Shown here: piece by piece, positions 19,739 through 31,658 of the stretch
Numbering within the stretch: position 1 is the stretch's first letter
How the letters are laid out: each line of letters begins with the position of its first letter
Source: Candidatus Kaiserbacteria bacterium CG10_big_fil_rev_8_21_14_0_10_47_16
GTDB lineage: Bacteria > Patescibacteriota > Minisyncoccia > Phycocordibacterales > UBA918
Length of the DNA stretch: 64,000 nt
Direction of reading: 5' to 3'
Assembly (NCBI GenBank): GCA_002773395.1
Contig: PFBI01000006.1
Coordinates: forward strand, 242,797-306,796
Position numbers and translations under genes: made by a program
The notes under the pieces: generated by a model
Database searches by the model: none
Told to the model about the DNA's origin: nothing
What the model saw: only the letters and a program-made list of their open reading frames with translations

Positions 19739-20818
19739 TTAGGCTTCTGCCTCGGGTTCTGCTTTTTTAGGAGTTTTCTTGGCCACTTTCCGAACCGCCT
19801 TCTTTGTCGCTTTCTTCTTTGCTACTTTCTTTTTTGCGGGAGCCTTTTTAACGGTTGCTGCTTTTGCTTTCTTTTGGAATTGTTCAATATTTCGATACAA
19901 CTCAGCGCGAAGTGTCGCGAAGTTATCTTCTGCATGTTTATAGGCTGCTGCCATTTCACGAATGTGCGCGTCTACGAGTTTTTGATATCGGCGTCGTTCT
20001 GCACGAATCACAAAGAAGAGACAAGCGATTATAATCATTCCGAGTAAGAGGATGAGGTCGCTCGTTCGCAATGACTGCATTTTGAAAAACGACATACTGA
20101 CACCGTACTGTGCAACCTGTGTTTCAGGAACATTTAATGCTGTCGTCGTCGTACTGGTGTTGCCCGCACCATCGTGCGCAACAACCATAAGCGTATGGCT
20201 CCCCGGAGTAACGGCGTCGAGTAAGTACCCGTTCACAACATCTGCTGCCGATACTGTTGTAAGCGGCGTACCGTCGAGGGTAAGTTCGTAACGTGCTACA
20301 CCAGAACCTGCGTCAGTTGTATTAAATATAAGTACTGGTGATCCGTCAGTATCCTCAATAGCGACCGAGGTAACCTTCGGTGCGGTAACATCGATCTGGA
20401 TACGGTAGTACCCAACTGCGCCCCATCCCGCATCATTCTTAAATTGCACCGCGAGGTACTGCACTCCTTCATGGAGGTCGGTGGCATCAAGGGCCACCTT
20501 ATTCACCAATGAACTAGCAGAACTGCTTGGCGCTTGGTCTGGTGTGTCCATGAGTTCGTAGGCAACCTTTGTCGCGCCAGCGGGAATATTCCACCAAACC
20601 GTCCCTGATTCTCCTTGTTGCCAACCATCTTCTGGACCAAAGTCATCTGAGCAAATAGTTGGGGCTGCAGGTGTGCCGTCGTCTGAAGTAGATTCAAACA
20701 ACACTTCTTCCATGCACGGTGGTGTAGATTCTTGTGCACGTGCAAGTGTCACAAATCCAAACGCGAGGCTTGCGCTGAGAGTGATGCTGAGAATAGTGAT
20801 AGTGTTGCGTAAGAGCAT
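19739..20818 (-). CDS. Type I membrane protein: signal peptide, Ig-like ectodomain, TM, and a Lys/Ala-rich histone-H1-like cytoplasmic tail
   Basis: Signal 'ITLSASLAFGFVTLARAQE', a beta-rich 'TAPKVTSVAIED...GSHTLMVVAHDGAGNTS' segment (Big-like), TM 'LILLLGMIIIACLFFVI', and the tail 'KKAKAATVKKAPAKKKVAKKKATKKAVRKVAKKTPKK'. Confidence 0.55.
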   Translation of the reverse strand: MLLRNTITILSITLSASLAFGFVTLARAQESTPPCMEEVLFESTSDDGTPAAPTICSDDFGPEDGWQQGESGTVWWNIPAGATKVAYELMDTPDQAPSSSASSLVNKVALDATDLHEGVQYLAVQFKNDAGWGAVGYYRIQIDVTAPKVTSVAIEDTDGSPVLIFNTTDAGSGVARYELTLDGTPLTTVSAADVVNGYLLDAVTPGSHTLMVVAHDGAGNTSTTTTALNVPETQVAQYGVSMSFFKMQSLRTSDLILLLGMIIIACLFFVIRAERRRYQKLVDAHIREMAAAYKHAEDNFATLRAELYRNIEQFQKKAKAATVKKAPAKKKVAKKKATKKAVRKVAKKTPKKAEPEAEA

Positions 20819-20953: not shown

Positions 20954-21940
20954 TTAAATAATTGTGACACCTGCCGTTAGTGCAACGTGAATATAAAAGA
21001 GAAGTGCCATCGCTGCCAAGAGTCCCCCACCGTACGCAATCTGAATCGGATGTTGCTTTCGCCACTCCATCACAATTGAAAGAATGAGTGACGCGGCAAC
21101 AAAGAGCGCGAGGAGTGCGTAGAGAATTTGCAACATTGTATTCGGGTTGGTGGCAATGCGGCCAAAGATACCTGCGGCTGCTGTTGGCGCTTCGATACCT
21201 GTTCCGGTGCCAAGCGAGCTGGCTTCTGCGTCGCGAGACGTCGTGGCAAGATCTGAATAGCGTGCAGGAGTATCAGTAGTGTCTCCAAGGGCTTCCGGAG
21301 CTACTGTCTGTGCGGCAGGGATTGCTGTCGCAACAGGCGCTGCGACACTCTCTCCAGCAACTGTCTGTGTTCGAAGTGGTGTTGAGGCTGGTGTGCCGAA
21401 AAACTGAACGACAAATACCGTGTCATATCCTTCGTATGTCCCCTTTGCCGTACCGACACCTATTTCAGTAAAATCGCCGTTTAAAATATTTGCGCGGTGA
21501 CCTGGTGAACTCATCCATGCATCAACCACATCTTCTGAGTCGGTGAAGTACACCGCAAGATTTTCTCCTGCGTGTACGAAGTTGTATCCTGACTCATCAA
21601 ACCAAAACCACGGTGCAACACCTTCAGGAGAGTAGTGCGCGAAGTATCCTTCCTTCGCCATATCGTTTGCTTTTTGCTGTGCAGCCTCATCGAGAACACT
21701 ACTGCGACGCAGTGTACCGACAGCTTCACTGCCCCGCGCTTCGTTTGTGAGGTCGACAATGACTGCAGGCAAAATAGTAGATACCAGCCAGTCAGAACTC
21801 ATCCAGAGAAATGACTGAATGTTCGCGAGCGAAAACGAAATAAGAATCAGTATCGCCATGACGGCAACTGACATTTTCTGCAGAACGTGTGGACGATATT
21901 TGTTTTCTTCACACGGAATGAAGTACGGACGTGGTCGCAT
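20954..21940 (-). CDS. CAP/SCP/PR1-like (YkwD-type) domain protein with TM segments at the N- and C-termini
   Basis: 'GYFAHYSPEG', 'AGENLA' and 'SPGHRANIL' match the CAP-domain motifs of YkwD-like proteins. A C-terminal hydrophobic block follows. Confidence 0.65.
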   Translation of the reverse strand: MRPRPYFIPCEENKYRPHVLQKMSVAVMAILILISFSLANIQSFLWMSSDWLVSTILPAVIVDLTNEARGSEAVGTLRRSSVLDEAAQQKANDMAKEGYFAHYSPEGVAPWFWFDESGYNFVHAGENLAVYFTDSEDVVDAWMSSPGHRANILNGDFTEIGVGTAKGTYEGYDTVFVVQFFGTPASTPLRTQTVAGESVAAPVATAIPAAQTVAPEALGDTTDTPARYSDLATTSRDAEASSLGTGTGIEAPTAAAGIFGRIATNPNTMLQILYALLALFVAASLILSIVMEWRKQHPIQIAYGGGLLAAMALLFYIHVALTAGVTII

Positions 21941-22041
21941 AATGTCGTGAATATACTATGTTTTATTGGGTTTGTCAATGGTTATCCCCACTCTGTGAAA
22001 AGAAAAGACCGGCCTTCGGCCGGTCTTTTCTTTTCGCCCTA

Positions 22042-23472
22042 CTACACACTCGAATCATCAAAGAAGAGGAGAATGATTGATCCGGCTGCAATCACCACAA
22101 ATGGCCATGCAACACAGAGTATCGGCGTAAAGGAGCCGAGAATCAACACCACGATCGATGCTGCTGCGAAGTAGAGGTTGCGAATACGCGGATTCCACAT
22201 CGGAGAGAGTATGTGGTGTCCTCGGTAATCGAGTACAGTCGCCGCAAGCCACGCAAGGACGAAGACCCACCAGTATGCGCCTGCAAAGCCGAAGTAAATA
22301 CCGAGCAGAACCGCGATTGTGTACAATGCATCAAAGATAACGCCACGGGTAAAGATTCGCGCAAAGAGTGCTGGTGGGTGACGAAGCTTGTCGTCAATCA
22401 CCGTCCAGAGGAATGACATTGCTGCCAAAATGAGAAGCCACCACGGTACGCATGCTGCAGTGTCGGTCATTGCCGATTTCACCGCATCAATAATATTCGC
22501 AGCAAGACCTTCTACGAGACCTTCCGGACTTGCAGTACCTTCATCTCCTGTTGAAGTGCTTGCACCAAGTACATCTCCAAACGGAGCCCCGCCGCCAACT
22601 CCAAAGAAGTTACCACCTGTCGGCAACGTGAAGGTAAGCGCAATGCCCACGGTAAAGTCATCACTAATATCTTCACGCGATGCTGGTCGACATTCATAGG
22701 TTCCCGGTGTAAGACCGGTGAGTACCGCAGTGTGATCCACCACTTTCGCAGTATCTTCACTTACTTCAAACTCATAGCCAAAGAAATCAGATTGATCGGT
22801 ATTGAGAACAAACGGACCGTTCGCTGTATTGCCGCAGACAAGGTACGTCGTCGAATTTCTATTTGTATCCCATGAAAGTACGGCCCCACCAACGTCGGTG
22901 TTTACCACATCTACTTGTTCATTAAAGAGAATGAATCGTGAGCTTCCGCCGCCGCCGCCACCTCCTCCCCCGCCGCCGCAGTCAGTTACACATTCGTTAT
23001 CCGTCACTGAATCTCCACCTTCAAATCCAACAATGAGATCAAATCCCATACTGCTCTTTTGATATGCGTTCCCTGTACTACTATCGAGTGACGCAGTAAA
23101 GGTGTAGGTACGAGTTGCCCCCGCACCGAGCGTTCCGAGTGATACCGGCGTTGCGGCAAAGAAATTGATGAACGTATCGTTGAAGTAGCTTGTCGGTGAA
23201 CTATCGGTAATTGAAAGTTCCATCACATCGGCAAGACCATTGTTTGACGCTTTATCGATAGAGACGTAGACGTTCTCTATCTCCGTACCATTGTTCGTCA
23301 CGACGACCGTACGACTCACACTGTCCCCCGGTGTTACGTTACTGTTGCTAAAGAGTGGCGTTTGCTCAAATACCACACTGAGGGTTGCTGCTTCTGCTGC
23401 AACCGGCATGAATGCGAGCGCGAGAAAAGCGAGCGTAAGAAGAATATGCTGTTGTAGTGTGCGCGTTATCAT
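22042..23472 (-). CDS. Sec-secreted beta-rich protein with a (Gly)12 tract and a C-terminal multi-helix membrane domain; its start overlaps the stop of the upstream gene (ATGA)
   Basis: Signal 'LAFLALAFMPVAAEAA', 'CGGGGGGGGGGGSS' and about 6 TM helices in the last 150 aa. The 4 bp overlap with 23469-25187 implies translational coupling. Confidence 0.55.
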   Translation of the reverse strand: MITRTLQQHILLTLAFLALAFMPVAAEAATLSVVFEQTPLFSNSNVTPGDSVSRTVVVTNNGTEIENVYVSIDKASNNGLADVMELSITDSSPTSYFNDTFINFFAATPVSLGTLGAGATRTYTFTASLDSSTGNAYQKSSMGFDLIVGFEGGDSVTDNECVTDCGGGGGGGGGGGSSRFILFNEQVDVVNTDVGGAVLSWDTNRNSTTYLVCGNTANGPFVLNTDQSDFFGYEFEVSEDTAKVVDHTAVLTGLTPGTYECRPASREDISDDFTVGIALTFTLPTGGNFFGVGGGAPFGDVLGASTSTGDEGTASPEGLVEGLAANIIDAVKSAMTDTAACVPWWLLILAAMSFLWTVIDDKLRHPPALFARIFTRGVIFDALYTIAVLLGIYFGFAGAYWWVFVLAWLAATVLDYRGHHILSPMWNPRIRNLYFAAASIVVLILGSFTPILCVAWPFVVIAAGSIILLFFDDSSV

Positions 23473-25187
23473 ACTGTTTCAGTTATATTTTCAACCGGTG
23501 TTTCTGCAGGAACATCTACTGGTTCTTTTGCAGGAGCCTCTTCGACTACCGGTTCCTCTGCAGGTACTTCCTCTTCTTCAGTCACCGGTACCTCTTCTTC
23601 TGCTACAACCTCCTCCTCTGCTGGAGCAGACTCCTCTTCAGTAGAAGTGGTCGTTTCTTCCGTTGGTGTTGTCTCTTCTTCGACAACCGGTGTTTCTTCG
23701 CTCGGAGTCTCAACACTTTCATCAGATGTTACCACCTCTTCTTCAGAGGTTCCGTCAGTCGGAGTTTCCGTTCCTGCATCTTCTTTCGGAGTAGCTCCTG
23801 ACCCAGTGCCTGCACCATTTGTGGAATCTCCGGAATCGTCACTACTTTCAGTTTGTGTAATTCCTTCGTCTACAACCACAATCTCTTCTGGTTTATTAGC
23901 GTACTCATTTTCAGTATCAGCCGTCTCGTCGTCGACTGGCTCTTCTTCTGTTTCCACAACTGGCTGCACCTTATTCAACTCACCAACCGCGACACCGAGT
24001 GCGAGGAGTGCGAGCTCTTCCTTCGTTAAATCATTCTCTGTATTTGGTATACCTGGTGTTGGAATTGGGTCCACCCATGCACCTATCCCGTCAGGAATAC
24101 GTGCGTATGATTTATTGTCAGGGACTGTTGCTCCCGGAGTGCAGTCGATACCGCCGCCACTCGGAACAGAATTATTGCCACCACCCGGTGTTGGCGTGAA
24201 GTAACAATAGTCGTAGTCACTTGTGTACGCGTACGAATCTTGAAGTACATCACTTGGGTTATAAAGCTTCACCGTATCACCAGTGTTATTCAAGATAGGC
24301 TTATTCATGTACACCACGAGGAATCCGTTTGCTGGAATGGTTGTTGTTGCAGCGTGTGTAAGATCAACATGTATGGTATTCCCCGCACCACCTGATGCGT
24401 CAACGACATACCATCCCGTAAGGTCAATTGCTGCTGCACTGAGGTTATAGAGCTCTACCCACTCTCCTTGTGGCATATCCGCGCTGTCGTTCCCGTAGTC
24501 AAAAATAAAGTCTGGATCCCTTGAGTCACAACTGTCATTCTCAGGGTCACTACAGAGTGGTCCGTGGGGACTTGGGAGGAATTCATTGAGTACGACAGGG
24601 TGCGCAACTCCTTCCGGTCCAGAGTCTTGTGTATTAATCGTAATACGAAGTTTTTCAACATCGAAGAATCCTGAGTTTGCTTGAATATCTACTCCATCAA
24701 GCCACGCACTAAAGATAAGATCAAACGTACATTCAGTATCAACAGGCGCTACAAATCCGTCAGTGACGGTAATGAACGAGTTCCAGAGACCGTAATCATT
24801 TGTCGGCGTTGTATCGGTGAGTGCGAGCGGTCCGCTGTATGTTGTTGTTCCATGTGCTGCATTCAATGAGAGTGCGCTGCAAACAGATTCATCTCCGCTT
24901 ACAAACTCATACGAGAGTGCGTATTTTGCGTCAATACTTCCTGAAACCAATGCAACGTTTGTATCAAATTGTACTTCATCGGCAGGTTCATTCGTAATTA
25001 CCCCTTCAAATTCATTCATTGAGAGTTCGATATCAAGGAAGCCTGCACTCCAACTATTGATACCTCCTGTTTCAGTGTCACTAAAAAACGCAAATGCTGC
25101 CGTCGGTGCAATGAGCGTAACGCAGAGAAGCGCCGCAATCGCTGCGCTTAGGTATGTGGTTACTCGTGTATGTAATATATGTTTCAT
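23469..25187 (-). CDS. SipW-cognate signal peptide protein with a lamin-tail domain (LTD) and a long acidic low-complexity C-terminal tail
   Basis: N-terminus 'TAAFAFFSDTETGGINSWSAGFLDIEL' is a variant of the TasA/camelysin-class signal. LTD motifs 'VVLNEFLP...GEWVELYNLSAAAIDLTGWYVVD...IPANGFLVV'. The C-terminal tail of about 170 aa is Glu/Thr/Pro/Val-rich. Confidence 0.7.
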   Translation of the reverse strand: MKHILHTRVTTYLSAAIAALLCVTLIAPTAAFAFFSDTETGGINSWSAGFLDIELSMNEFEGVITNEPADEVQFDTNVALVSGSIDAKYALSYEFVSGDESVCSALSLNAAHGTTTYSGPLALTDTTPTNDYGLWNSFITVTDGFVAPVDTECTFDLIFSAWLDGVDIQANSGFFDVEKLRITINTQDSGPEGVAHPVVLNEFLPSPHGPLCSDPENDSCDSRDPDFIFDYGNDSADMPQGEWVELYNLSAAAIDLTGWYVVDASGGAGNTIHVDLTHAATTTIPANGFLVVYMNKPILNNTGDTVKLYNPSDVLQDSYAYTSDYDYCYFTPTPGGGNNSVPSGGGIDCTPGATVPDNKSYARIPDGIGAWVDPIPTPGIPNTENDLTKEELALLALGVAVGELNKVQPVVETEEEPVDDETADTENEYANKPEEIVVVDEGITQTESSDDSGDSTNGAGTGSGATPKEDAGTETPTDGTSEEEVVTSDESVETPSEETPVVEEETTPTEETTTSTEEESAPAEEEVVAEEEVPVTEEEEVPAEEPVVEEAPAKEPVDVPAETPVENITETV

Positions 25188-25213: not shown

Positions 25214-25759
25214 CTACTCAGAAGCCTCTTCATCTTTTTTGCGAAACTCTCGCACAAGCGTACGTGCTTCATCAATGAATACGAGGGCTGCCGGGAGAAC
25301 AATGATGAGAATGAAGCCGAGTGGCTTCCGCGCGAAATCAATGATGTGCCCAATGTACGGGATATCAAAGATGACTTCGCCCGTGATCTTCGATGCGGGA
25401 GTCGGCGTAATATCAGCCTCCTCGTTGGCATCACCCTTTGTGGTGTACATCAACTCTCCCTTTGTAATAGTTTCCGCAATAATACGGTGTGTCGTCGGAA
25501 CGCGTGTTTTGGTATCTTCACCAAATGTCACCACATCACCAACGCGGTATGAACCTGTCGGATAAATAAGGACAAGCGCACCCGTTTTTATTGCCGGCTC
25601 CATAGAACCCGATTGGACGATTTTGATTGAGTAGTCTCCAAAGAGCGGTACCTTGGTACCAATGAGAAGTACCCCAATCAGAATAATAAATCCAATAAAG
25701 AATCCGTAAGCTATTTTTGAAAAGAGCGCTGTGTTCATTATGTTCTTCAGGATTTCCAT
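25214..25759 (-). CDS. sipW: Signal peptidase I of the SipW/archaeal-ER type
   Basis: The catalytic Ser box 'VQSGSMEP' is identical to the B. subtilis SipW motif. One N-terminal TM helix and a C-terminal TM/basic tail. Confidence 0.8.
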   Translation of the reverse strand: MEILKNIMNTALFSKIAYGFFIGFIILIGVLLIGTKVPLFGDYSIKIVQSGSMEPAIKTGALVLIYPTGSYRVGDVVTFGEDTKTRVPTTHRIIAETITKGELMYTTKGDANEEADITPTPASKITGEVIFDIPYIGHIIDFARKPLGFILIIVLPAALVFIDEARTLVREFRKKDEEASE

Positions 25760-25805: not shown

Positions 25806-27761
25806 TTATTCGAAGTCTGAGATTTGACCGTCAAAGTTGATCCAGTCAACGTAACCAGTTTCACCCGCAGGTCCTGGGTGTCCTACACGTATTCCAAACC
25901 ATGAATCGGTTGATCGTGTTTCTGCGTTTGGATAGTTCGCAAGAATGTCCGCCCATGTACGTGGTGTAGAGCCTGGTGTTGTACCTGTGTTATCTACTGC
26001 ACCTGCTGGCCAATTGCCACCAGAAAGTGTCCACATTCCTGCAAGGGCGTCCACTGTTGTCCATGTATTTGCCGTTACACCAGTTGGAACCTGCACAAGA
26101 CGTCGCTGCCATGTATCAGAATTATCGAAGTCGACGTTGAAGTGCAGATACGGAGTCTCGCCTGAAACTGATCCGTCATACATACGGTATGACAGCGTTC
26201 CAATATCAGAGAGCTTCACGTCGTTATAACGATAGGTCGCGATGTTATAACGTGCAGCAGCCTCATGGAGCACCATCTTTGCTGCTCCTGAACCAGCAAC
26301 GGCTTCAAAGTGGTTTTCACCACCTGAACCACTGAACTGGTCGATGCTCATAACTGTATCGTTGGTGTCATTGTAGAAGAACCATGCGCCACTTACTTTT
26401 GCGGCAACTTTGTCACCTGTTTCAAGATCATCTTCGGCAACTTCATTTTCATTGCCTCCACCATTTTGATCATCTCCAATGTGGATGTTCTCACACTGGA
26501 ATGAACCATTGTTTCGAACTTGCTCTGCGTATGCAGTAAGAGACGCGGTGAATGAATCACTCATTGCATCGTTATGCATCGTTGATCCGTCACAACCGAA
26601 TGCATTATCGATGTTTGCACTGATTGTACCCGCACACCACGCAAGACCAACGTACCCTGTTGTCGTTGCGGTGAGATATTGTCCATTGTCTGAATCGAGA
26701 CTTGCGATACTACCGAGGTTTCCGAGTGTTGATTCTCCAAGAGAAGTTTCACCAGTCTCATATACTCCGTCAGCGTCAGTATCAAGCCATGAGAAGAACG
26801 TAATGTAGTCCTGTAGTTCACCGTCTTGATCATCATCACCGTACTTTGCTTCTGGTTCCATGATGTCGTTTTCCGCATCCTCTCCATCATGTGCAATGAG
26901 ACATGTGTATGCATCGTTGTCGAACACGTGAAGTGAGATAACGTTTGTTCCAAGGTCTCCTGGCTTCACATCATTGAAGGTGAAGAATGTTTGATCCGTA
27001 AGATCTGTCTCTTCCCAAAGTTGGCACTGCCAAACGTCTGAAGGAATGCCATCGATATCTTCATTATCGCAGTGAAGTGCTCGTACCGCATCAAGATCAA
27101 AACCGTCAGCGTCACTGTTATGCAGCGTTGGATCAGTCGTGTCAGTAATACGAACGTAGTAGACCAATGGTGCATTTCCGTCGAGGTCAATTTCGATAGT
27201 CCCGTCAAACGTAACTGATGAAGGACTTACGTCAACAGTCGTCCAGTCAGATCCATTTGGACTTACTTCGACTTTTACACTTTCATCAGGATACGCAGGT
27301 GAAGTTACACCTGTTGCTTCGTAGATTCGGAGATCATCTCCTGGACCGTCATCAATTCCGTCTGGGAAGTGGAGTACGATGCTGCCGCCAAATCCAAGAC
27401 TCACGAAGCCTGTTGGCGATACGTCCGGAGTACTTCCAGATGTATCTGCTGGGCCGGTGGCATCGTCTGGATTACTCCGTCCTGCAAGAACCGCATCTCC
27501 TCCCTTTCGCAATCCTTGGTTGAAAGAAGTTACTTCTTCAGCCCAACGATTACAACGCGTTGTACAGTCTTCGCCGTTATATGTTTGCTTGAGGTGGTCA
27601 ACCTTAAGATCGATAGAACCTGCGGTAAAGATGTTACCGGTTGAAGTTTCTGTATCGTTAAAGAACGCACCTGTTGCGCTAATAACGAGGGCGGCAATAG
27701 CCACAAGAAGGGCCGCGCTGAGTAATAATCGTTTTTTCGTTAAAATCTGGTTCATGGTCAT
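25806..27761 (-). CDS. TasA/camelysin-like (peptidase M73 family) fibre protein, 651 aa, with a SipW-cognate signal peptide
   Basis: 'ATGAFFNDTETSTGNIFTAGSIDLKV' is the textbook SipW-cognate signal. The core 'FFTFNDVKPGDLGT' parallels the TasA 'LKPGD' region. Confidence 0.75.
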   Translation of the reverse strand: MTMNQILTKKRLLLSAALLVAIAALVISATGAFFNDTETSTGNIFTAGSIDLKVDHLKQTYNGEDCTTRCNRWAEEVTSFNQGLRKGGDAVLAGRSNPDDATGPADTSGSTPDVSPTGFVSLGFGGSIVLHFPDGIDDGPGDDLRIYEATGVTSPAYPDESVKVEVSPNGSDWTTVDVSPSSVTFDGTIEIDLDGNAPLVYYVRITDTTDPTLHNSDADGFDLDAVRALHCDNEDIDGIPSDVWQCQLWEETDLTDQTFFTFNDVKPGDLGTNVISLHVFDNDAYTCLIAHDGEDAENDIMEPEAKYGDDDQDGELQDYITFFSWLDTDADGVYETGETSLGESTLGNLGSIASLDSDNGQYLTATTTGYVGLAWCAGTISANIDNAFGCDGSTMHNDAMSDSFTASLTAYAEQVRNNGSFQCENIHIGDDQNGGGNENEVAEDDLETGDKVAAKVSGAWFFYNDTNDTVMSIDQFSGSGGENHFEAVAGSGAAKMVLHEAAARYNIATYRYNDVKLSDIGTLSYRMYDGSVSGETPYLHFNVDFDNSDTWQRRLVQVPTGVTANTWTTVDALAGMWTLSGGNWPAGAVDNTGTTPGSTPRTWADILANYPNAETRSTDSWFGIRVGHPGPAGETGYVDWINFDGQISDFE

Positions 27762-27862: not shown

Positions 27863-29182
27863 TTAGTCTTGTTCTCCGAGATATTCCCCTGCGATTACAT
27901 CACATGAGAATTGCTCATTATTTCGCTTCTGTACTGCGTATGCAGTCAGAGATGCTGTGTATGAGTCACTTTGGGTGATGTTACCCATAGTCTCCCCATC
28001 ACAATCAAAGTCTGATCCCGCAGTCGCTGTAAGCGTACCTGCACACCATGCAACACCTACGTATGCAGTTGTTGTGGCTGAAAGATAGTCAGTGAGTGTA
28101 TCAAGACTTGCGATACTCCCGAGGTTACCGAGTGTAGTCTGCCCGAGAGCAGTTTCACCATTCTCGTAAATACCATTGCCATTATCATTCCAAGTGAATA
28201 CATCAATGTAATCTTGGAGTTCTCCAGCAGTGTTATCGTCACCAAGGTCAGCCTCTGGTTCAGTTACAGAGTTATCTGCATCTACACCATCATGTGCAAT
28301 GAGACATGCGTATGCATCATTGTCATATACGTGAAGTGAGATGACGTCTGTTCCCAGATCTCCTGGCTTCACATCATTGAAGTTGAAGAATGTGTCTCCT
28401 TCTCCAAGATCCTTTTCTTGCCAGAGCTTACATACTTGCTGGAATGATGAGTCTTCTGCACATTCTTCTGCATCACGATCGATATCAAGCTTGAAGAGAA
28501 GACCTGCTGGATTCTGTGTTACAGGATCTCCTGCAAGTGCTTTGTTGCGAACAACAATCTGGAGGGTGTTTTCACCATTCACCATTGCCCCCATGAAAGT
28601 CGTTTCTTCTCCACCCGTTAGCTGAACAGCAGATCCATAGTTAAACTCTGTAGCGAGTTTATCTACAATAGTGACACCGTTAAGGATAACCTTGTATCCG
28701 TTATCTGCCGCGATGGCAAGATCGAGGTCTACGTTCACTGCTGTTCCATTCCATTGGAACTTATTTTCGAACGTATATTCAACATCTCCTACACTGTCAG
28801 CCGCATTTGGAGCAGTTGCCCAAATCCAGATTGCTGGAGCCAAAGCTGCTTCATTCTGCCACGCAGGGTGTGGAGCTGCTACATCAGTTGCAGGAATTGG
28901 GAATGGTCCCTGGTATACAGCAGCCGCATTTGAACCAACGACCTGTGTTGCTGTAGAACTGAATACGTCTACGCTACATGTCTCACAATCAACATCATTG
29001 TACGTTTGTATAAGGTGATCAACTTTGAGGTCGATAGAACCTGCAGTAAAGATGTTGCCTGTTGAAGTTTCTGTATCGTTGAAGAACGCGCCTGTCGCGC
29101 CGATCACGAGTGCTGCAACAAACACCATCATGCCGAGTGCGAGAAGCACTCGTTTGTTTGCAATAAGTGTTGCAATTTTCAT
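27863..29182 (-). CDS. TasA/camelysin-like fibre protein, 439 aa, paralogous to the 651 aa protein; start at ATG 29182
   Basis: N-terminus 'IGATGAFFNDTETSTGNIFTAGSIDLKVDHL' is almost identical to that of 25806-27761. Shared blocks include 'FFNFNDVKPGDLGTDVISLHVYDNDAYACLIAHDG', 'LGNLGSIASLD', 'GVAWCAGT' and 'YTASLTAYA'. Confidence 0.75.
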   Translation of the reverse strand: MKIATLIANKRVLLALGMMVFVAALVIGATGAFFNDTETSTGNIFTAGSIDLKVDHLIQTYNDVDCETCSVDVFSSTATQVVGSNAAAVYQGPFPIPATDVAAPHPAWQNEAALAPAIWIWATAPNAADSVGDVEYTFENKFQWNGTAVNVDLDLAIAADNGYKVILNGVTIVDKLATEFNYGSAVQLTGGEETTFMGAMVNGENTLQIVVRNKALAGDPVTQNPAGLLFKLDIDRDAEECAEDSSFQQVCKLWQEKDLGEGDTFFNFNDVKPGDLGTDVISLHVYDNDAYACLIAHDGVDADNSVTEPEADLGDDNTAGELQDYIDVFTWNDNGNGIYENGETALGQTTLGNLGSIASLDTLTDYLSATTTAYVGVAWCAGTLTATAGSDFDCDGETMGNITQSDSYTASLTAYAVQKRNNEQFSCDVIAGEYLGEQD

Positions 29183-29477
29183 AAAATAATTTGAGTTACT
29201 TGGTAAAGTTTGATTAATAACCACTCCAAAACACACCTAGAAAAGAACTTCCTTGGATGTGTTCATCATCCCACCATTTAGGTACACGGTGGACAAGTGG
29301 AGGAACTTCAATTGGTAACAAAAACGCGCACAATATATTGTGCGCGTTTTTAATTACGTATGTAGTGAAGTCGCCTCCTGTGTCCATCCTGTCTTCTTCA
29401 TGGTGTTCCTAGTATAGACTCACCATAGTAAGCTGCAACCTTGCAGAGATGTAAAATTTGTTTCGTGATGTAAAAAT

Positions 29478-29519
29478 GAATAGCCTGAAAACCGCACGAG
29501 TGCGGTTTTCAGGCTATTC
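29478..29519 (-). terminator. Strong terminator hairpin (perfect 18-20 bp arms) between the LTXXQ gene and the TasA-like operon
   Basis: 'gaatagcctgaaaaccgcac-gag-gtgcggttttcaggctattc'. Confidence 0.7.
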
Positions 29520-29553: not shown

Positions 29554-30207
29554 TTATTGATCATCTGCTGACGTGTCAGATGATAGGGCGTCATGGCGTG
29601 GAGCCCCGAACACTGGTGGGAGACCGGCGTCACGGAGGAGCTGGTGGGCCCCCCTGTGATCGCCACTTTGGTTGAGTTCGTACGCTTCGAGAAGCGTATT
29701 GAACGACTCTTGGCTTATCATGTCTTTGAATGGAGCATTCTCTGTTGCTGCAACAAAGGCATCATAATCCTTGTTCGCAAGTGCATTACGGATGGCATCA
29801 CGCACTGCCTGATTCCCTTCTCCGCGAGGTCCAATGTGATTTCCAAACGGCGGAATGTCTATTCCCGCATCTGCAAGTACTTGCTTCGCGGCATCATCAT
29901 TACCTTGCTCATGAAGTGTTCGCGCTTCCGTAAGAGCATCCTTCTGCTCCTCGGTGAGATTAGCAAACTCACCCTTGTGCGGCCGCTGTGACATCATGTT
30001 TTTGGTAACGCCTGCGTCTTGAAGTACTTGTTTTGCGCCGTCGAAGTCACCTGATTCCCGGAGATCACGCGCCTCATCGAGGGCGTCTTTCTGGTCATCC
30101 GTGAGATCTTTGAAATCTGCGTAGGCATAGGAGACACCGAGGACTCCAAAGAGGAGAATCGGTATAACCAGCGCGGCAAATTTTTGATCTCGAGTCAGTG
30201 TGTTCAT
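29554..30207 (-). CDS. Secreted repeat protein with three LTXXQ (Spy/CpxP-like) motif repeats
   Basis: N-terminal TM, then three copies of 'LT(D/E)(D/E)QKDAL.EAR.L.E.GD.D.AKQVL.DAG'. Confidence 0.5.
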   Translation of the reverse strand: MNTLTRDQKFAALVIPILLFGVLGVSYAYADFKDLTDDQKDALDEARDLRESGDFDGAKQVLQDAGVTKNMMSQRPHKGEFANLTEEQKDALTEARTLHEQGNDDAAKQVLADAGIDIPPFGNHIGPRGEGNQAVRDAIRNALANKDYDAFVAATENAPFKDMISQESFNTLLEAYELNQSGDHRGAHQLLRDAGLPPVFGAPRHDALSSDTSADDQ

Positions 30208-30226
30208 AACGATTGCATATGGTTAA

Positions 30227-31087
30227 TTATTTTTGCAAGATGCGAACTCGTACGCGCTCGCACTCATTACTACGCATAGCCGGATCTTTTATTTCACTTT
30301 CTGGTCGTACCCTCTCGAGGAATGCGCTCCGACGGCCGAGCATATCGCTAATTGAGTTTTGTTCATGTGGCAGAAATCCTGGCAAGATAATACATGCGTA
30401 GAAGACATCGTCTGATGTTGTTGCTTGGTAGCCAATCACACGAACCTCCTCAAAGCGTGCAAGCGCATCAAGATCCTTCGGACTCAGGCCAGCAGTATAG
30501 AGCGTCCACTTTGTGCCATTGGTGTCAGTGAAGAGGATCGTTTCTTCTGTAAGTGGCGCGCTCGCGCTTCCGATAAGACGACCTTCATCCGCGTCGTCCC
30601 ACAGTTCTTCTTGAAGCCTGACCACTGATGTATGGAACGGGATACGCTCCCCAACCATAACTTCTATCGTTGATCCCGCACCAATGCCGTAGAGTATTGC
30701 TCCTCCCACGAAGCTGCCACCAATACTCATAATCATCACGATGGTGAGTGAGTATCGATACCCTGTCTTCGTGTGACGAAGGTTGAAGTACCCAAAGAGT
30801 ACCGTGCCCGCAAGAATGCCGATCCAAAGATACGGCAGTACCGTCACAATGAATGTGATCATGTTACGGTGCGTTGCCTCATAGAACTCCCATCCTGCGT
30901 GCTCTGTCGCAAAGGCGGAGGCCGCGAGCGCTGCGCTTCCGATAAGGACCGCCCCGCCCCACAGAGTCCAGAACGTAACGTCGCGCGAGACGAATACCCA
31001 TCGCGCTCGCGGCGAAACAGCATCATCACTGATACGCATCATGACTCTCTGCTTTATATCTTCTGTTGTGTGTTGTGTGCTATTCAT
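30227..31087 (-). CDS. Putative membrane-bound anti-sigma factor (overlaps the ECF sigma gene by 8 bp)
   Basis: Position and 8 bp overlap with the sigma gene, 4-5 TM helices, and a C-terminal extracytoplasmic domain. No recognisable ZAS motif. Confidence 0.45.
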   Translation of the reverse strand: MNSTQHTTEDIKQRVMMRISDDAVSPRARWVFVSRDVTFWTLWGGAVLIGSAALAASAFATEHAGWEFYEATHRNMITFIVTVLPYLWIGILAGTVLFGYFNLRHTKTGYRYSLTIVMIMSIGGSFVGGAILYGIGAGSTIEVMVGERIPFHTSVVRLQEELWDDADEGRLIGSASAPLTEETILFTDTNGTKWTLYTAGLSPKDLDALARFEEVRVIGYQATTSDDVFYACIILPGFLPHEQNSISDMLGRRSAFLERVRPESEIKDPAMRSNECERVRVRILQK

Positions 31088-31658
31088 ACGCTGGATGTTC
31101 TTTGAGTTCTTTGCGGAGGCGGCCTTTGGCTCTGTGGAGGAGCGTGGCCACCGAACCTATGGGTATCTTTAAAATGTCGGAGATCTCGTCATATTCCTTA
31201 TGTTCAAAAAACCGCAAGATGACAACGTCTCGGTATTTATTATCAAGATGACTCACCGCTCTCCCGACAACCGCAGCGTCGAGCGCAGCATCAAAGAGTA
31301 TTTCGCTCCCTTTCTCGGTACTCGCAACAAACGTGAGGATATCCTCACTGTCTGACACAAGGTGTCCTTCGGGACGCACTCGCTTCTTTCGAAACGAGTT
31401 TATGGCTTCATTGTGGGCAATACGATACATCCATGAAGAAAACGACAACGCCGTATCAAATTCATTGAGATTCCGGTACGCTTTTATAAAAATTTCTTGG
31501 AGAACGTCTGCAACATCTTCCTCATCACGCACGCCAAGTCGGCGTACGTATCGTGCGAGCTTTGCTTCATACCGTTCGATGAGTAGGCCAAAGAACTCAC
31601 GCTGATTACGCGCCATTTCCACCAGCTCCTCGTCTGTTTTTATCCCACCAACAGGCAT
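31080..31658 (-). CDS. ECF (group IV) RNA polymerase sigma factor
   Basis: Region 2 'VLQEIFIKAYRNLNEFD...SFSSWMYRIAHNEAIN' and region 4 'EISDILKIPIGSVATLLHRAKGRLRKEL'. Confidence 0.85.
   Translation of the reverse strand: MPVGGIKTDEELVEMARNQREFFGLLIERYEAKLARYVRRLGVRDEEDVADVLQEIFIKAYRNLNEFDTALSFSSWMYRIAHNEAINSFRKKRVRPEGHLVSDSEDILTFVASTEKGSEILFDAALDAAVVGRAVSHLDNKYRDVVILRFFEHKEYDEISDILKIPIGSVATLLHRAKGRLRKELKEHPAYE

What the first reader, a model, noticed from the sequence alone, without database searches (positions are those of the whole stretch)
23469..25187. SipW-cognate protein combining a lamin-tail domain with a roughly 170 aa poly-acidic tail
Its N-terminal signal is a divergent variant ('AFFSDTETGGINSWSAGFLDIEL') of the signal on the two structural paralogs. 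The protein then carries a clear LTD ('NEFLP...EWVELYN...DLTGWYVVD...IPANGFLVV'). It ends in an extremely Glu/Thr/Pro/Val-rich low-complexity region, whose reverse strand yields the 185 aa Ser-rich shadow ORF at 23647-24204. I am not aware of an LTD fused to a SipW-class signal. The tail could bind cations or matrix material.
Basis: partly seen in the sequence, partly recalled or inferred. Interest (0 to 1): 0.55.

Follow-up and report, generated by a model that had tools for sequence, protein, structure and literature searches.

The report
LTD accessory subunit of TasA-like fibre
This is a real secreted protein of an ultra-small (Patescibacteria) bacterium; it belongs to a widespread but unstudied family that always sits beside a SipW signal peptidase and TasA-like fibre proteins, and it most likely plugs into those fibres to display a lamin-tail domain and a long acidic tail.

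Summary
Window 23469-25187 (-) encodes a 572 aa protein with four parts:
- a signal peptide;
- an Ig-like N-domain;
- a significant lamin-tail domain (PF00932, 54.3 bits, E 2e-14);
- a tail of about 190 aa with 32% Asp+Glu and net charge about -57.

The architecture is not a rarity. At least 373 database clusters and 100 species genomes carry it, and every named one is Patescibacteria. They are annotated only as 'lamin tail domain-containing protein'.

Gene order is fixed: one to four TasA/camelysin-like genes, then SipW, then this gene, then a membrane-anchor gene. In 6 of 80 loci SipW is fused to this gene.

The 'divergent signal' is mostly the first segment of the mature protein. It matches the paralogs' N-termini and aligns with the TasA donor strand. 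The downstream anchor protein has a related body domain but lacks that strand.

Best reading (about 0.5, inferred): a TapA-like initiator or tip subunit. SipW cleaves it. It donates its N-terminal strand to a TasA-like fibre and presents the LTD and an acidic disordered tail.

- The target itself is below the TIGR04088 cutoff.
- The tail DNA has no tandem repeats.
- Cation binding by the tail is untested.

The parts
23469..25187 (-). Complete ORF of the LTD protein (572 aa plus stop)
   Evidence: Homologues at 37-63% identity over 86-100% of aa 1-406.
25089..25187 (-). Signal peptide, aa 1-33. The n-region is MKHILHTR, the h-region is aa 9-30, and the predicted AxA site is AFA|FF.
   Evidence: Hydropathy. 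The cleavage site is inferred by analogy with TasA (A27|A28, PMC9674648) and with the family consensus TxA|YFND. It has not been shown.
25023..25088 (-). Mature N-terminal segment FFSDTETGGINSWSAGFLDIEL (aa 34-55), the donor-strand-like motif shared with the TasA-like paralogs
   Evidence: hhalign against the paralogs: 97% probability, E 6e-11; 98%, E 3e-13 with larger profiles. Aligns to mature TasA residues 2-20. AF2 pLDDT is only 55-72 here, so it is not packed on its own domain.
24618..25022 (-). Compact Ig-like beta-sandwich N-domain (aa 56-190) with invariant C103 and C153
   Evidence: AF2 pLDDT 90.8, pTM 0.82. Foldseek finds only generic pilin and chaperone sandwiches, TM 0.35-0.47. hhalign to the N-domain of the downstream anchor: 94.7%, E 6e-8. 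Invariant Cys residues.
24039..24602 (-). Lamin-tail domain region (aa 196-383). The Pfam match covers aa 236-322 (nt 24222-24482). It is flanked by the invariant first strand VLNEFLP and by the invariant block NKSYARIPDGxGxWVDPxPTPGxxN. An inserted loop carries C328 and C349.
   Evidence: PF00932, 54.3 bits. Invariant columns. AF2 pLDDT is about 80 for aa 198-322 and below 50 for aa 330-389.
23472..24038 (-). Acidic low-complexity tail (aa 384-572), ending ...NITETV
   Evidence: 32% D+E, 2.6% K+R, net charge -57. The character of the tail is conserved across the family while its sequence and length are not: 59-313 aa, median 164.5.
23647..24204 (+). Ser-rich shadow ORF, antisense to the tail. 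Not a gene.
   Evidence: It lies entirely inside the conserved coding region of the opposite strand.
25214..25759 (-). SipW-type (archaeal/ER-type) signal peptidase I, 26 nt upstream of the target
   Evidence: TIGR02228, 103 bits against a cutoff of 51.85; NF046067 SipW, E 4e-32 but below its equivalog cutoff. Directly upstream or fused in 59 of 69 loci.
25806..27761 (-). TasA/camelysin-like SipW-cognate paralog B (651 aa)
   Evidence: TIGR04088, 25.9 bits. Family hhalign to TasA 8AUR: 63%, E 7e-5.
27863..29236 (-). TasA/camelysin-like SipW-cognate paralog A (457 aa as listed). The real start is probably the ATG at 29182, giving MKIATLIANKR.
   Evidence: TIGR04088, 26.6 bits; PF12389, 24.5 bits. 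The alignment with orthologues starts at that Met.
22042..23472 (-). Downstream partner, the 'anchor' (476 aa). Order of parts: ordinary signal peptide; TasA-like body domain lacking the donor-strand motif; an 11-Gly run; an FN3-like domain; five C-terminal hydrophobic helices. Its start overlaps the target's stop codon by 4 nt.
   Evidence: hhalign of its body to the TasA-like paralogs: 93.9%, E 1.6e-7. Directly downstream of the LTD gene in 46 of 64 loci.
29478..29519 (-). Strong terminator-like hairpin (19 bp stem) upstream of the operon
22007..22021 (-). Weak terminator-like hairpin just after the anchor gene. It suggests a five-gene transcription unit running from about 29.3 kb to about 22.0 kb.
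   Evidence: pattern match only

Best explanation
The protein is the accessory (minor) subunit of a TasA-type, SipW-dependent, donor-strand fibre system that is conserved in Patescibacteria.

Proposed sequence of events:
1. The protein is exported through Sec.
2. The adjacent SipW peptidase cleaves it after A33.
3. Cleavage frees the N-terminal segment FFSDTETGGINSWSAGFLDIEL.
4. This segment is the counterpart of the donor strand of the two TasA-like major subunits encoded upstream. It inserts into the beta-sandwich of a major subunit, as B. subtilis TapA does with TasA.
5. The protein thereby starts or caps the fibre.

The downstream operon partner has a related body domain. It has no donor strand and carries C-terminal membrane helices. 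It is therefore suited to accept the strand at the other end of the fibre and tie that end to the cell. On this logic the LTD protein would sit at the distal end. There its compact Ig-like N-domain would act as a stalk, the LTD as the functional (binding) module, and the roughly 190 aa polyanionic disordered tail as a hydrated, charge-repelling extension.

Shown here: the domain content, the shared N-terminal segment, the conserved operon and the SipW fusions.

Inferred: the cleavage site, strand donation, the tip position, and what the LTD and tail bind.
For: **Domains**
- LTD, 54.3 bits.
- N-domain model, pLDDT 90.8.
- Acidic tail.

**Shared N-terminal segment**
- hhalign to the paralogs: 97-98% probability, E 6e-11 to 3e-13.
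- It aligns with mature TasA residues 2-54, E 4.5e-4, with reversed-sequence controls at 0.3% probability or less. The TasA sequence was verified as PDB 8AUR chain A.
- In TasA, residues 28-38 are the donor strand. TapA has a similar N-terminus that complements TasA (PMC9674648, PMC10151520).

**Genomic context**
- The order TasA-like, SipW, LTD, anchor holds in 80 Patescibacteria loci. SipW is adjacent or fused in 59 of 69, the anchor is adjacent in 46 of 64, and TasA-like genes lie upstream in 48 of 55.
- Natural SipW::LTD fusions retain the internal membrane helix and the YFSDAESS motif.
- Only these three ORFs in the 64 kb window carry the motif.

**Anchor family**
- It has an ordinary signal peptide. 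The motif is absent in 49 of 51 members and a C-terminal membrane helix is present in 49 of 51.
- Its body is homologous to the TasA-like body (93.9%, E 1.6e-7) and to the LTD protein's N-domain (94.7%, E 6e-8).
- It aligns to TasA only from mature residue 23 onward, so it lacks the donor strand.

**Payload**
- Longer family members keep the LTD and insert adhesin-type domains (Big_13, Laminin_G_3, fn3) between the N-domain and the LTD, as expected for a displayed payload.
Against: - No complex could be modelled and no experiment exists, so strand donation is inferred.
- The target's own scores for TIGR04088 (14.4 against 19) and PF12389 (19.2 against 22.5) are below cutoff.
- The N-domain body shows no direct profile similarity to the TasA-like paralogs once the signal and strand are trimmed (2.3% probability).
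- Foldseek does not return TasA or TapA among the top 50 hits, and the best TM-scores are below 0.5.
- It could not be decided whether the N-domain is self-complete (TapA-like) or has an open groove (in-fibre subunit).
- The profile matches to TasA itself are only moderate, 29-63% probability against a single sequence.
- Neither the LTD nor the tail has a demonstrated ligand. The role of bacterial LTDs is unresolved in the literature (PMC6085458).
Confidence: 0.5

Rival explanations
1. In-fibre decorated subunit or adaptor. The N-domain has both a donor strand and an open acceptor groove. The protein is therefore incorporated along the fibre, or between tip and shaft, and studs it with LTDs and acidic tails.
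For: The N-domain body is homologous to the N-domain of the anchor (94.7%, E 6e-8), and the anchor is proposed to accept a strand. The Foldseek neighbours are mainly pilins and chaperones of donor-strand systems. The fixed operon partnership also fits this reading.
Against: There is a single copy per operon next to one to four major-subunit genes. The body is not detectably similar to the major subunits. A roughly 190 aa polyanionic tail on every subunit would hinder the fibre bundling seen for TasA (PMC9674648). Whether a groove exists was not testable here.
Confidence: 0.2
2. Free secreted SipW substrate. The protein shares only the export and cleavage route with the fibre proteins. It acts on its own as a soluble or matrix-associated binding protein, for example for extracellular DNA, host envelope or cations.
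For: Bacterial and archaeal LTDs occur in extracellular nucleases and in ComEC/ComA-type DNA-uptake proteins (PMC6085458, PMC5118699). The protein has no membrane helix or sorting motif at its C-terminus. The target scores below the TIGR04088 cutoff.
Against: The conserved segment lies after the predicted cleavage site and matches the donor strand, not just the signal. Conservation of the mature N-terminus across the family would not be needed for export alone. Strict synteny with the anchor and fibre genes also argues against independence. A polyanionic tail next to a DNA-binding module would be odd.
Confidence: 0.2
3. Cell-proximal nucleator and anchor, the original 'TasA anchoring protein' idea for TapA. 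The LTD or the acidic tail binds the cell envelope or S-layer, and fibres grow outward from it.
For: A membrane-targeting role has been proposed for prokaryotic LTDs (Mans et al. 2004, as cited in PMC6085458). TapA co-localises with the cell surface (PMC10151520).
Against: The operon already encodes a dedicated membrane-anchored protein without a donor strand. By strand polarity that protein can only cap the opposite end of the fibre from a strand-donating protein. Variable adhesin-type inserts before the LTD in relatives suggest outward display.
Confidence: 0.1

Closest known systems
TapA (YqxM) of the Bacillus subtilis tapA-sipW-tasA operon
   Same: - It is the minor, single-copy partner of TasA-type subunits.
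- It is encoded beside sipW.
- It has a SipW-type N-terminus.
- Its mature N-terminal segment resembles the major subunit's donor strand.
- An Ig-like domain follows that segment, then a long disordered C-terminal part (PMC10151520, PMC9674648).
   Different: - No sequence match to TapA or to any TapA family model was found.
- The gene order differs: here the TasA-like genes come first and the accessory gene follows sipW.
- This protein carries an LTD and a polyacidic tail.
- It is paired with a dedicated membrane-anchor protein, which B. subtilis lacks.
AbpB of the archaeal bundling pilus (Pyrobaculum calidifontis)
   Same: It is an accessory protein encoded next to a TasA-homologous pilin. 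It has been proposed to initiate the filament by donating a strand and to display distal beta-domains as an adhesin (PMC9245690).
   Different: It belongs to a different lineage and has different domains. The archaeal operon has no dedicated SipW. No sequence relationship was tested or found here.
Tip adhesins of chaperone-usher pili (FimH, CfaE, FmlH)
   Same: They have a two-module design, with a pilin-like Ig domain and a binding domain, at one end of a donor-strand fibre. They are the nearest Foldseek neighbours of the N-domain.
   Different: TM-scores are only 0.3-0.47. The polarity is opposite, since FimH accepts a strand rather than donating one. The assembly machinery is different and unrelated in diderm bacteria. 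This is analogy, not membership.
Prokaryotic LTD proteins such as ExeM nuclease and haloarchaeal ComA/Hvo_1477
   Same: They are secreted or envelope-associated proteins with a PF00932 domain of unresolved function (PMC6085458, PMC5118699).
   Different: In those proteins the LTD accompanies hydrolase domains. Here it accompanies a donor-strand N-terminus, an Ig-like stalk and an acidic tail, with no enzymatic domain.

Membership tests
Lamin tail domain (Pfam PF00932) | HMM score at or above the gathering cutoff (34.3 bits) | tested here: met
   54.3 bits, E 2e-14, aa 236-322, profile positions 20-108 of 109. All 120 listed homologues carry PF00932.
SipW-dependent-type signal peptide proteins (NCBIfam TIGR04088) | HMM score at or above 19 bits on the N-terminus | tested here: not met
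   The target scores 14.4 bits, E 0.032. The two paralogs pass with 26.6 and 25.9 bits. 15 of 29 orthologues match at E <= 0.01, the best at 1.3e-8.
SipW-dependent-type signal peptide proteins (NCBIfam TIGR04088) | Encoded next to a SipW-type (archaeal/ER-type) signal peptidase I | tested here: met
   SipW lies 26 nt upstream. It is adjacent or fused in 59 of 69 related loci, with 6 fusions (P0009).
SipW-dependent-type signal peptide proteins (NCBIfam TIGR04088) | Actual cleavage by SipW | not testable with these tools
   Needs N-terminal sequencing or proteomics, or a SipW knockout or heterologous assay.
TasA/camelysin family (Pfam PF12389 Peptidase_M73) | HMM score at or above 22.5 bits, covering the jelly-roll body | tested here: not met
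   19.2 bits, over aa 16-78 only (profile positions 10-70 of 196). The body shows no direct similarity to the TasA-like paralogs. 13 of 29 orthologues match at E <= 0.01. So the protein shares the N-terminal strand, not the whole family domain.
TapA-like fibre initiator (functional class) | Mature N-terminus resembles the donor strand of the co-encoded major subunit | tested here: met
   hhalign gives 97-98% probability, E 6e-11 to 3e-13. The segment aligns to TasA 8AUR residues 2-54.
TapA-like fibre initiator (functional class) | Sequence homology to B. subtilis TapA | tested here: not met
   No TapA family appeared in the Pfam or NCBIfam scans. No PDB chain, TapA 6HQC included, was matched by the family profiles or appeared among the Foldseek top 50.
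TapA-like fibre initiator (functional class) | Donates its strand to the major subunit and accelerates or nucleates polymerisation | not testable with these tools
   Needs multimer modelling or in vitro assembly.
Chaperone-usher pilins and chaperones | Fold match with TM-score above 0.5, and an usher-chaperone gene context | tested here: not met
   The best TM-scores are 0.35-0.47 with E about 3e-4. No usher or chaperone genes are in the operon.

The most novel reading that the evidence does not exclude
Patescibacteria build a previously undescribed, fully polar, cell-anchored TasA-type pilus. Its base would be a donor-strand-less TasA-like domain on a poly-Gly/FN3 stalk with C-terminal membrane helices. 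Its shaft would be one to four TasA-like subunits. Its tip would be this protein, added first. The LTD, with extra adhesin domains in some lineages, would be the organ that captures host cells or extracellular DNA. The polyanionic tail would keep the tip extended and unbundled. If so, this would be a third kind of monoderm surface pilus, beside sortase pili and type IV pili, in a phylum whose host-attachment machinery is largely unknown.
Probability: 0.3. Interest if true: 0.75.

Novelty: new variant of a known kind. Interest (0 to 1): 0.55.

Why it matters
Patescibacteria (CPR) make up a large share of bacterial diversity. Most appear to live attached to other cells, yet apart from type IV pili little is known about their surface appendages.

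The TasA/TapA/SipW donor-strand fibre has been worked out only in Bacillus, with an archaeal cousin. TasA homologues in Patescibacteria have merely been noted (PMC9245690).

This locus shows a conserved four-part version: shaft subunits, a dedicated peptidase, an LTD-bearing strand donor, and a strand-less membrane anchor. It gives a testable assembly polarity and a candidate attachment or capture module.

It would also give the bacterial lamin-tail domain, whose function is still unresolved, a defined structural context: displayed on a fibre.

Tried and rejected
**Leads that went nowhere**
- Tandem repeats in the tail DNA. TRF found none and only weak cryptic repeats are present, so 'repetitive DNA' is rejected.
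- Direct sequence links to solved structures. Profiles of the whole family, of the N-domain and of the TasA-like paralogs found nothing meaningful in the PDB.
- Foldseek of the two-domain model. It returned two-domain pilus chaperones at TM about 0.19 query-normalised (about 0.35 target-normalised) and rmsd about 14 A, which is uninformative. The N-domain alone gave only generic pilin and chaperone sandwiches with TM below 0.5. I do not claim fold identity.
- Small-profile hhalign of the anchor against the paralogs was negative. It became significant only with 51- and 113-sequence profiles.

**Ideas considered and dropped**
- A PDZ-ligand reading of the C-terminus (...TETV...NETI). The [ST]-x-[IVL] end is not enriched: 5 of 186, p = 0.8.
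- A sortase-type signal. 'IPTPG' is not LPXTG, and it is followed by an acidic tail, not by a basic membrane-spanning tail.

**Literature**
- No paper links the LTD with TasA/SipW or with CPR bacteria.
Full report
**1. Observation**

The ORF at 23469..25187 on the minus strand is real. It starts with ATG and encodes 572 aa.

- Pfam finds one significant domain, the lamin tail domain PF00932: 54.3 bits, E 2e-14, gathering cutoff 34.3, aa 236-322.
- The N-terminus has a short basic n-region and one hydrophobic segment, aa 9-30. This is followed by AFA-FFSDTETGGINSWSAGFLDIEL.
- The last part of the protein is a low-complexity acidic region. aa 396-572 are E 27%, T 15%, V 14% and P 9%, with 58 acidic and 4 basic residues. 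Counted from the conserved PTPG motif, the tail is 193 aa with net charge -57.
- The Ser-rich ORF at 23647..24204 (+) exists: 185 aa, 25% Ser. It is simply the antisense reading of the Glu-rich tail.
- The remark that the coding DNA is repetitive is not borne out. Tandem Repeats Finder reports no array in the tail. The direct-repeat search finds only 27-29 nt stretches of 65-76% identity that reflect runs of Glu codons.

**2. The neighbourhood is an operon**

All genes below are on the minus strand.

| Gene | Coordinates | Size | Key evidence |
|---|---|---|---|
| Paralog A | 27863-29236 | 457 aa | TIGR04088 26.6 bits; PF12389 above cutoff |
| Paralog B | 25806-27761 | 651 aa | TIGR04088 25.9 bits |
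| SipW-type signal peptidase I | 25214-25759 | 181 aa | TIGR02228 103 bits |
| Target | 23469-25187 | 572 aa | starts 26 nt after SipW |
| Downstream 'anchor' | 22042-23472 | 476 aa | start overlaps the target's stop by 4 nt |

- A 19-bp-stem terminator-like hairpin precedes the cluster at 29519-29478. A weak one follows the 476 aa gene at 22021-22007.
- Only the two paralogs and the target carry the FF[NS]DTET motif in the whole 64 kb window.

**3. The target is 'SipW-cognate' by context, not by HMM cutoff**

- On the target, TIGR04088 scores 14.4 bits against a cutoff of 19. PF12389 scores 19.2 bits against 22.5. Both are below cutoff.
- The family as a whole matches. 15 of 29 orthologues hit TIGR04088, the best at 1.3e-8, and 13 of 29 hit PF12389.
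- Profile-profile comparison of the family's N-region with the TasA-like paralogs gives 97% probability, E 6e-11. That match is restricted to 36 columns: the end of the hydrophobic segment plus the first mature residues. With larger profiles it rises to 98%, E 3e-13.

**4. The architecture is common, not unique**

- A search with aa 1-406 returned 373 clusters at E <= 1e-3. The 120 listed are 415-691 aa long and all carry PF00932. Where named, they come from Zambryski-, Kaiser-, Sung- and Pacebacteria and other Parcubacteria/Patescibacteria, and are labelled 'lamin tail domain-containing protein'. The best hit is only 63% identical.
- A scan of one genome per GTDB species found 100 relatives. 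The 80 loci kept have Patescibacteria titles, apart from generic 'bacterium' labels and four TPA assemblies titled 'uncultured Gammaproteobacteria', which look like crude automatic labels.
- The N-domain alone finds 266 representatives among 1.84 billion 50%-identity clusters.
- All seven scanned members that include the region after the N-domain keep an LTD match. One of these is a 256 aa fragment scoring below the cutoff.
- Four of the six long members have extra sequence between the N-domain and the LTD. Three of them carry recognisable adhesin-type domains there: Big_13, Laminin_G_3 or fn3.

**5. Conserved features of the family**

- A mature N-terminal motif: A|[YF][FY]NDxExSxxNxFxAGxLD[FI]xL.
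- A roughly 140 aa N-domain with two invariant Cys residues (C103, C153).
- The LTD, with an invariant first strand NEFLPxP.
- An insert with two further invariant Cys residues (C328, C349).
- An invariant block NKSYARIPDGxGxWVDPxPTPGxxN.
- A tail whose sequence is not conserved but whose character is:
  - length 59-313 aa, median 164.5;
  - acidic fraction median 0.29;
  - basic fraction median 0.011;
  - net charge median -44;
  - pooled composition E 22.9%, T 9.7%, P 9.1%, V 9.0%, S 8.2%, I 8.1%;
  - almost no aromatic residues;
  - a TM-like stretch in only 3 of 121 tails.

**6. Synteny**

In three loci retrieved by exact protein look-up the order is the same: TasA-like genes (weak or faint PF12389), a gene of about 184-206 aa, the LTD gene, then a 400-452 aa gene. 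A CAP-domain gene is often nearby.

Across the 80 GTDB loci I used my own ORF calling and phmmer with the window proteins:

| Feature | Count |
|---|---|
| SipW homologue directly upstream on the same strand, or fused | 59 of 69 informative loci |
| Homologue of the 476 aa protein directly downstream | 46 of 64 |
| TasA-like genes upstream | 48 of 55 |

- The order was always TasA-like (1-4 copies), SipW, LTD, anchor.
- In six loci a single ORF matches both SipW and the LTD protein.
- P0009 (Zambryskibacteria, 691 aa, seen on 17 contigs) is such a fusion. It keeps an internal membrane helix and YFSDAESS between the peptidase and the N-domain.
- These single-sequence searches give lower bounds.

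**7. Structure**

- AlphaFold2 with a 108-sequence alignment gives pLDDT 76 for aa 1-410. The N-domain is very confident, the LTD is at about 80, and aa 330-410 are below 50.
- The N-domain alone (aa 30-196) gives pLDDT 90.8 and pTM 0.82. It is a nine-strand beta-sandwich. The first ~20 residues, aa 30-51, are of lower confidence and not packed on the domain.
- Foldseek against the PDB returns pilins, adhesins and chaperones of chaperone-usher pili (Caf1M, AggA, CfaE, FimA, FmlH). E is about 3e-4 to 3e-3 and TM only 0.3-0.47. TasA and TapA are not in the top 50. I read this as a generic Ig-like sandwich, not as membership.

**8. How the three operon protein types relate**

I built larger profiles from the GTDB loci: 66 LTD N-regions, 113 TasA-like proteins and 51 anchors. 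I trimmed away signal peptides and the N-terminal motif before comparing the bodies.

| Comparison (bodies only) | Probability | E-value | Columns |
|---|---|---|---|
| Anchor vs TasA-like | 93.9% | 1.6e-7 | 107 |
| LTD N-domain vs anchor | 94.7% | 6e-8 | 94 |
| LTD N-domain vs TasA-like | 2.3% | not significant | - |
| Reversed-sequence controls | <= 0.8% | - | - |

Against the TasA sequence itself, which I verified to be identical to PDB 8AUR chain A, the results were:

| Family | Probability | E-value | Mature TasA residues aligned |
|---|---|---|---|
| TasA-like | 63% | 7e-5 | 7-76 |
| LTD N-region | 33% | 4.5e-4 | 2-54 |
| Anchor | 29% | 6e-4 | 23-86 |
| Reversed controls | <= 0.3% | - | - |

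The matches are moderate but colinear.

The anchor family has an ordinary AxA signal. The N-terminal motif is absent in 49 of 51 members. A run of five or more Gly is present in 34 of 51 and a C-terminal membrane helix in 49 of 51. The anchor is therefore a TasA-like body without the donor strand, tethered in the membrane by its C-terminus.

**9. What the literature adds**

- In TasA fibres, residues 28-38 of each subunit form a donor strand. This strand completes the sandwich of the next subunit. TapA has a similar N-terminus, is predicted to complement TasA, and nucleates fibres (PMC9674648).
- Roske et al. showed that TapA accelerates filament formation by donating its N-terminus. Because its own Ig fold is complete, it is unlikely to take part in the filament beyond initiation (PMC10151520).
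- Wang et al. noted PF12389 homologues in Patescibacteria. They proposed that the archaeal accessory protein AbpB starts the filament and displays distal domains as an adhesin (PMC9245690).
- The role of prokaryotic LTDs is unresolved. Membrane targeting and a link to extracellular DNA metabolism have both been suggested (PMC6085458, PMC5118699).
- I found no paper that connects LTDs with TasA/SipW or with CPR bacteria.

**10. Interpretation**

The most economical model is this. SipW cleaves the protein after A33 (inferred from the AxA rule and the TasA precedent). The freed strand inserts into a TasA-like subunit. The protein thereby initiates or caps a fibre.

Strand polarity then places the strand-less, membrane-tethered anchor at the opposite end of the fibre. 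The LTD protein would therefore be distal, with the LTD as payload and the polyanionic tail as a disordered, hydrated extension.

I put this at about 0.5. The rivals are:
- an in-fibre decorated subunit, 0.2;
- an independent secreted SipW substrate, 0.2;
- a cell-proximal nucleator that binds the envelope, 0.1.

The main gaps are the lack of a multimer model, the lack of experiments, the sub-threshold HMM scores on the target, and no direct body similarity to the major subunits.

**11. Novelty and score**

The protein family is already present in databases under a generic name. The finding is therefore not a unique fusion.

What appears undescribed is the system it belongs to: a Patescibacteria version of the TasA/TapA/SipW donor-strand fibre. 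It has an LTD-bearing strand donor and a dedicated strand-less membrane anchor.

I rate it a new variant of a known kind, with interest 0.55.

Noticed in passing
window 22042-23472 (-): The 476 aa downstream partner has these parts in order: an ordinary signal peptide; a TasA-like body domain that lacks the donor-strand motif; a run of 11 Gly; an FN3-like region; and five C-terminal hydrophobic helices. Its family (51 members) is almost always directly downstream of the LTD gene. It looks like a membrane base or terminator for the fibre.
   Followed up: partly
P0009; L003/L004 8001-10076; 6 of 80 loci in L005-L084: These are natural gene fusions of SipW with the LTD protein. They keep an internal membrane helix and the YFSDAESS cleavage/strand motif, so peptidase and substrate are in one polypeptide.
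   Followed up: partly
C-termini of 186 family members; target ends ...NITETV at window 23472-23489: The tails are unalignable, yet the extreme C-terminus is biased. It ends in E in 88 of 186 members. The dipeptide [ST]E closes 47 of 186 tails, against a 3.4% internal frequency. 'TI' closes 17. The sequences are related, so the binomial p-value (2e-27) overstates the case. The meaning is unknown.
   Followed up: partly
window 29554-31658 (-); L001 1320-2484: An ECF-type sigma factor (192 aa), a 286 aa membrane protein and a 217 aa DUF5667-like repeat protein lie just upstream of the operon, separated from it by a strong terminator. L001 also has Sigma70_r2/r4 and DUF5667 genes upstream. With 7 kb flanks, phmmer found this pairing in only 2 of 80 loci. 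It may be a dedicated regulator.
   Followed up: no
window 20954-21940 (-) and 19739-20818 (-): A CAP/SCP-domain protein with a C-terminal membrane helix follows the operon, with its own good promoter-like site at 21978-21950. A CAP homologue is next to the operon in 13 of 80 loci. The next gene encodes a 359 aa surface protein with a Big/OmpL47-like domain, a membrane helix and a Lys-rich (AKKKVAKKKATKK) cytoplasmic tail.
   Followed up: no
window 27863-29236 (-) and 25806-27761 (-): Both TasA-like paralogs carry large lineage-specific insertions. There is an insertion of roughly 200 aa between the donor strand and the KPGD strand in both. Paralog B also has a C-terminal extension of about 230 aa with only a weak DUF1935 match. 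The listed GTG start of paralog A is probably wrong; the ATG at 29182 fits the orthologues.
   Followed up: partly
N-termini of homologues P0002-P0120: Many orthologues have a long Lys/Arg-rich N-terminal extension of 20-70 aa before the signal-peptide helix. The target has only MKHILHTR. The purpose is unknown; it may be a cytoplasmic retention or targeting segment that SipW removes.
   Followed up: no
window aa 207-235 of the target (nt 24483-24569): Between the first LTD strand and the Pfam-matched core lies an Asp-rich loop. The family consensus is FDFGxDSSDMPQGEW, with the motif F229-D230-F231-G232-x-D234 invariant at G232 and 90% or more conserved at the other four positions. In this subfamily the loop has an extra Cys-containing insert, PLCSDPENDSCDSRDPD, which P0009 also has. 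It could be a metal-binding loop. Not tested.
   Followed up: no
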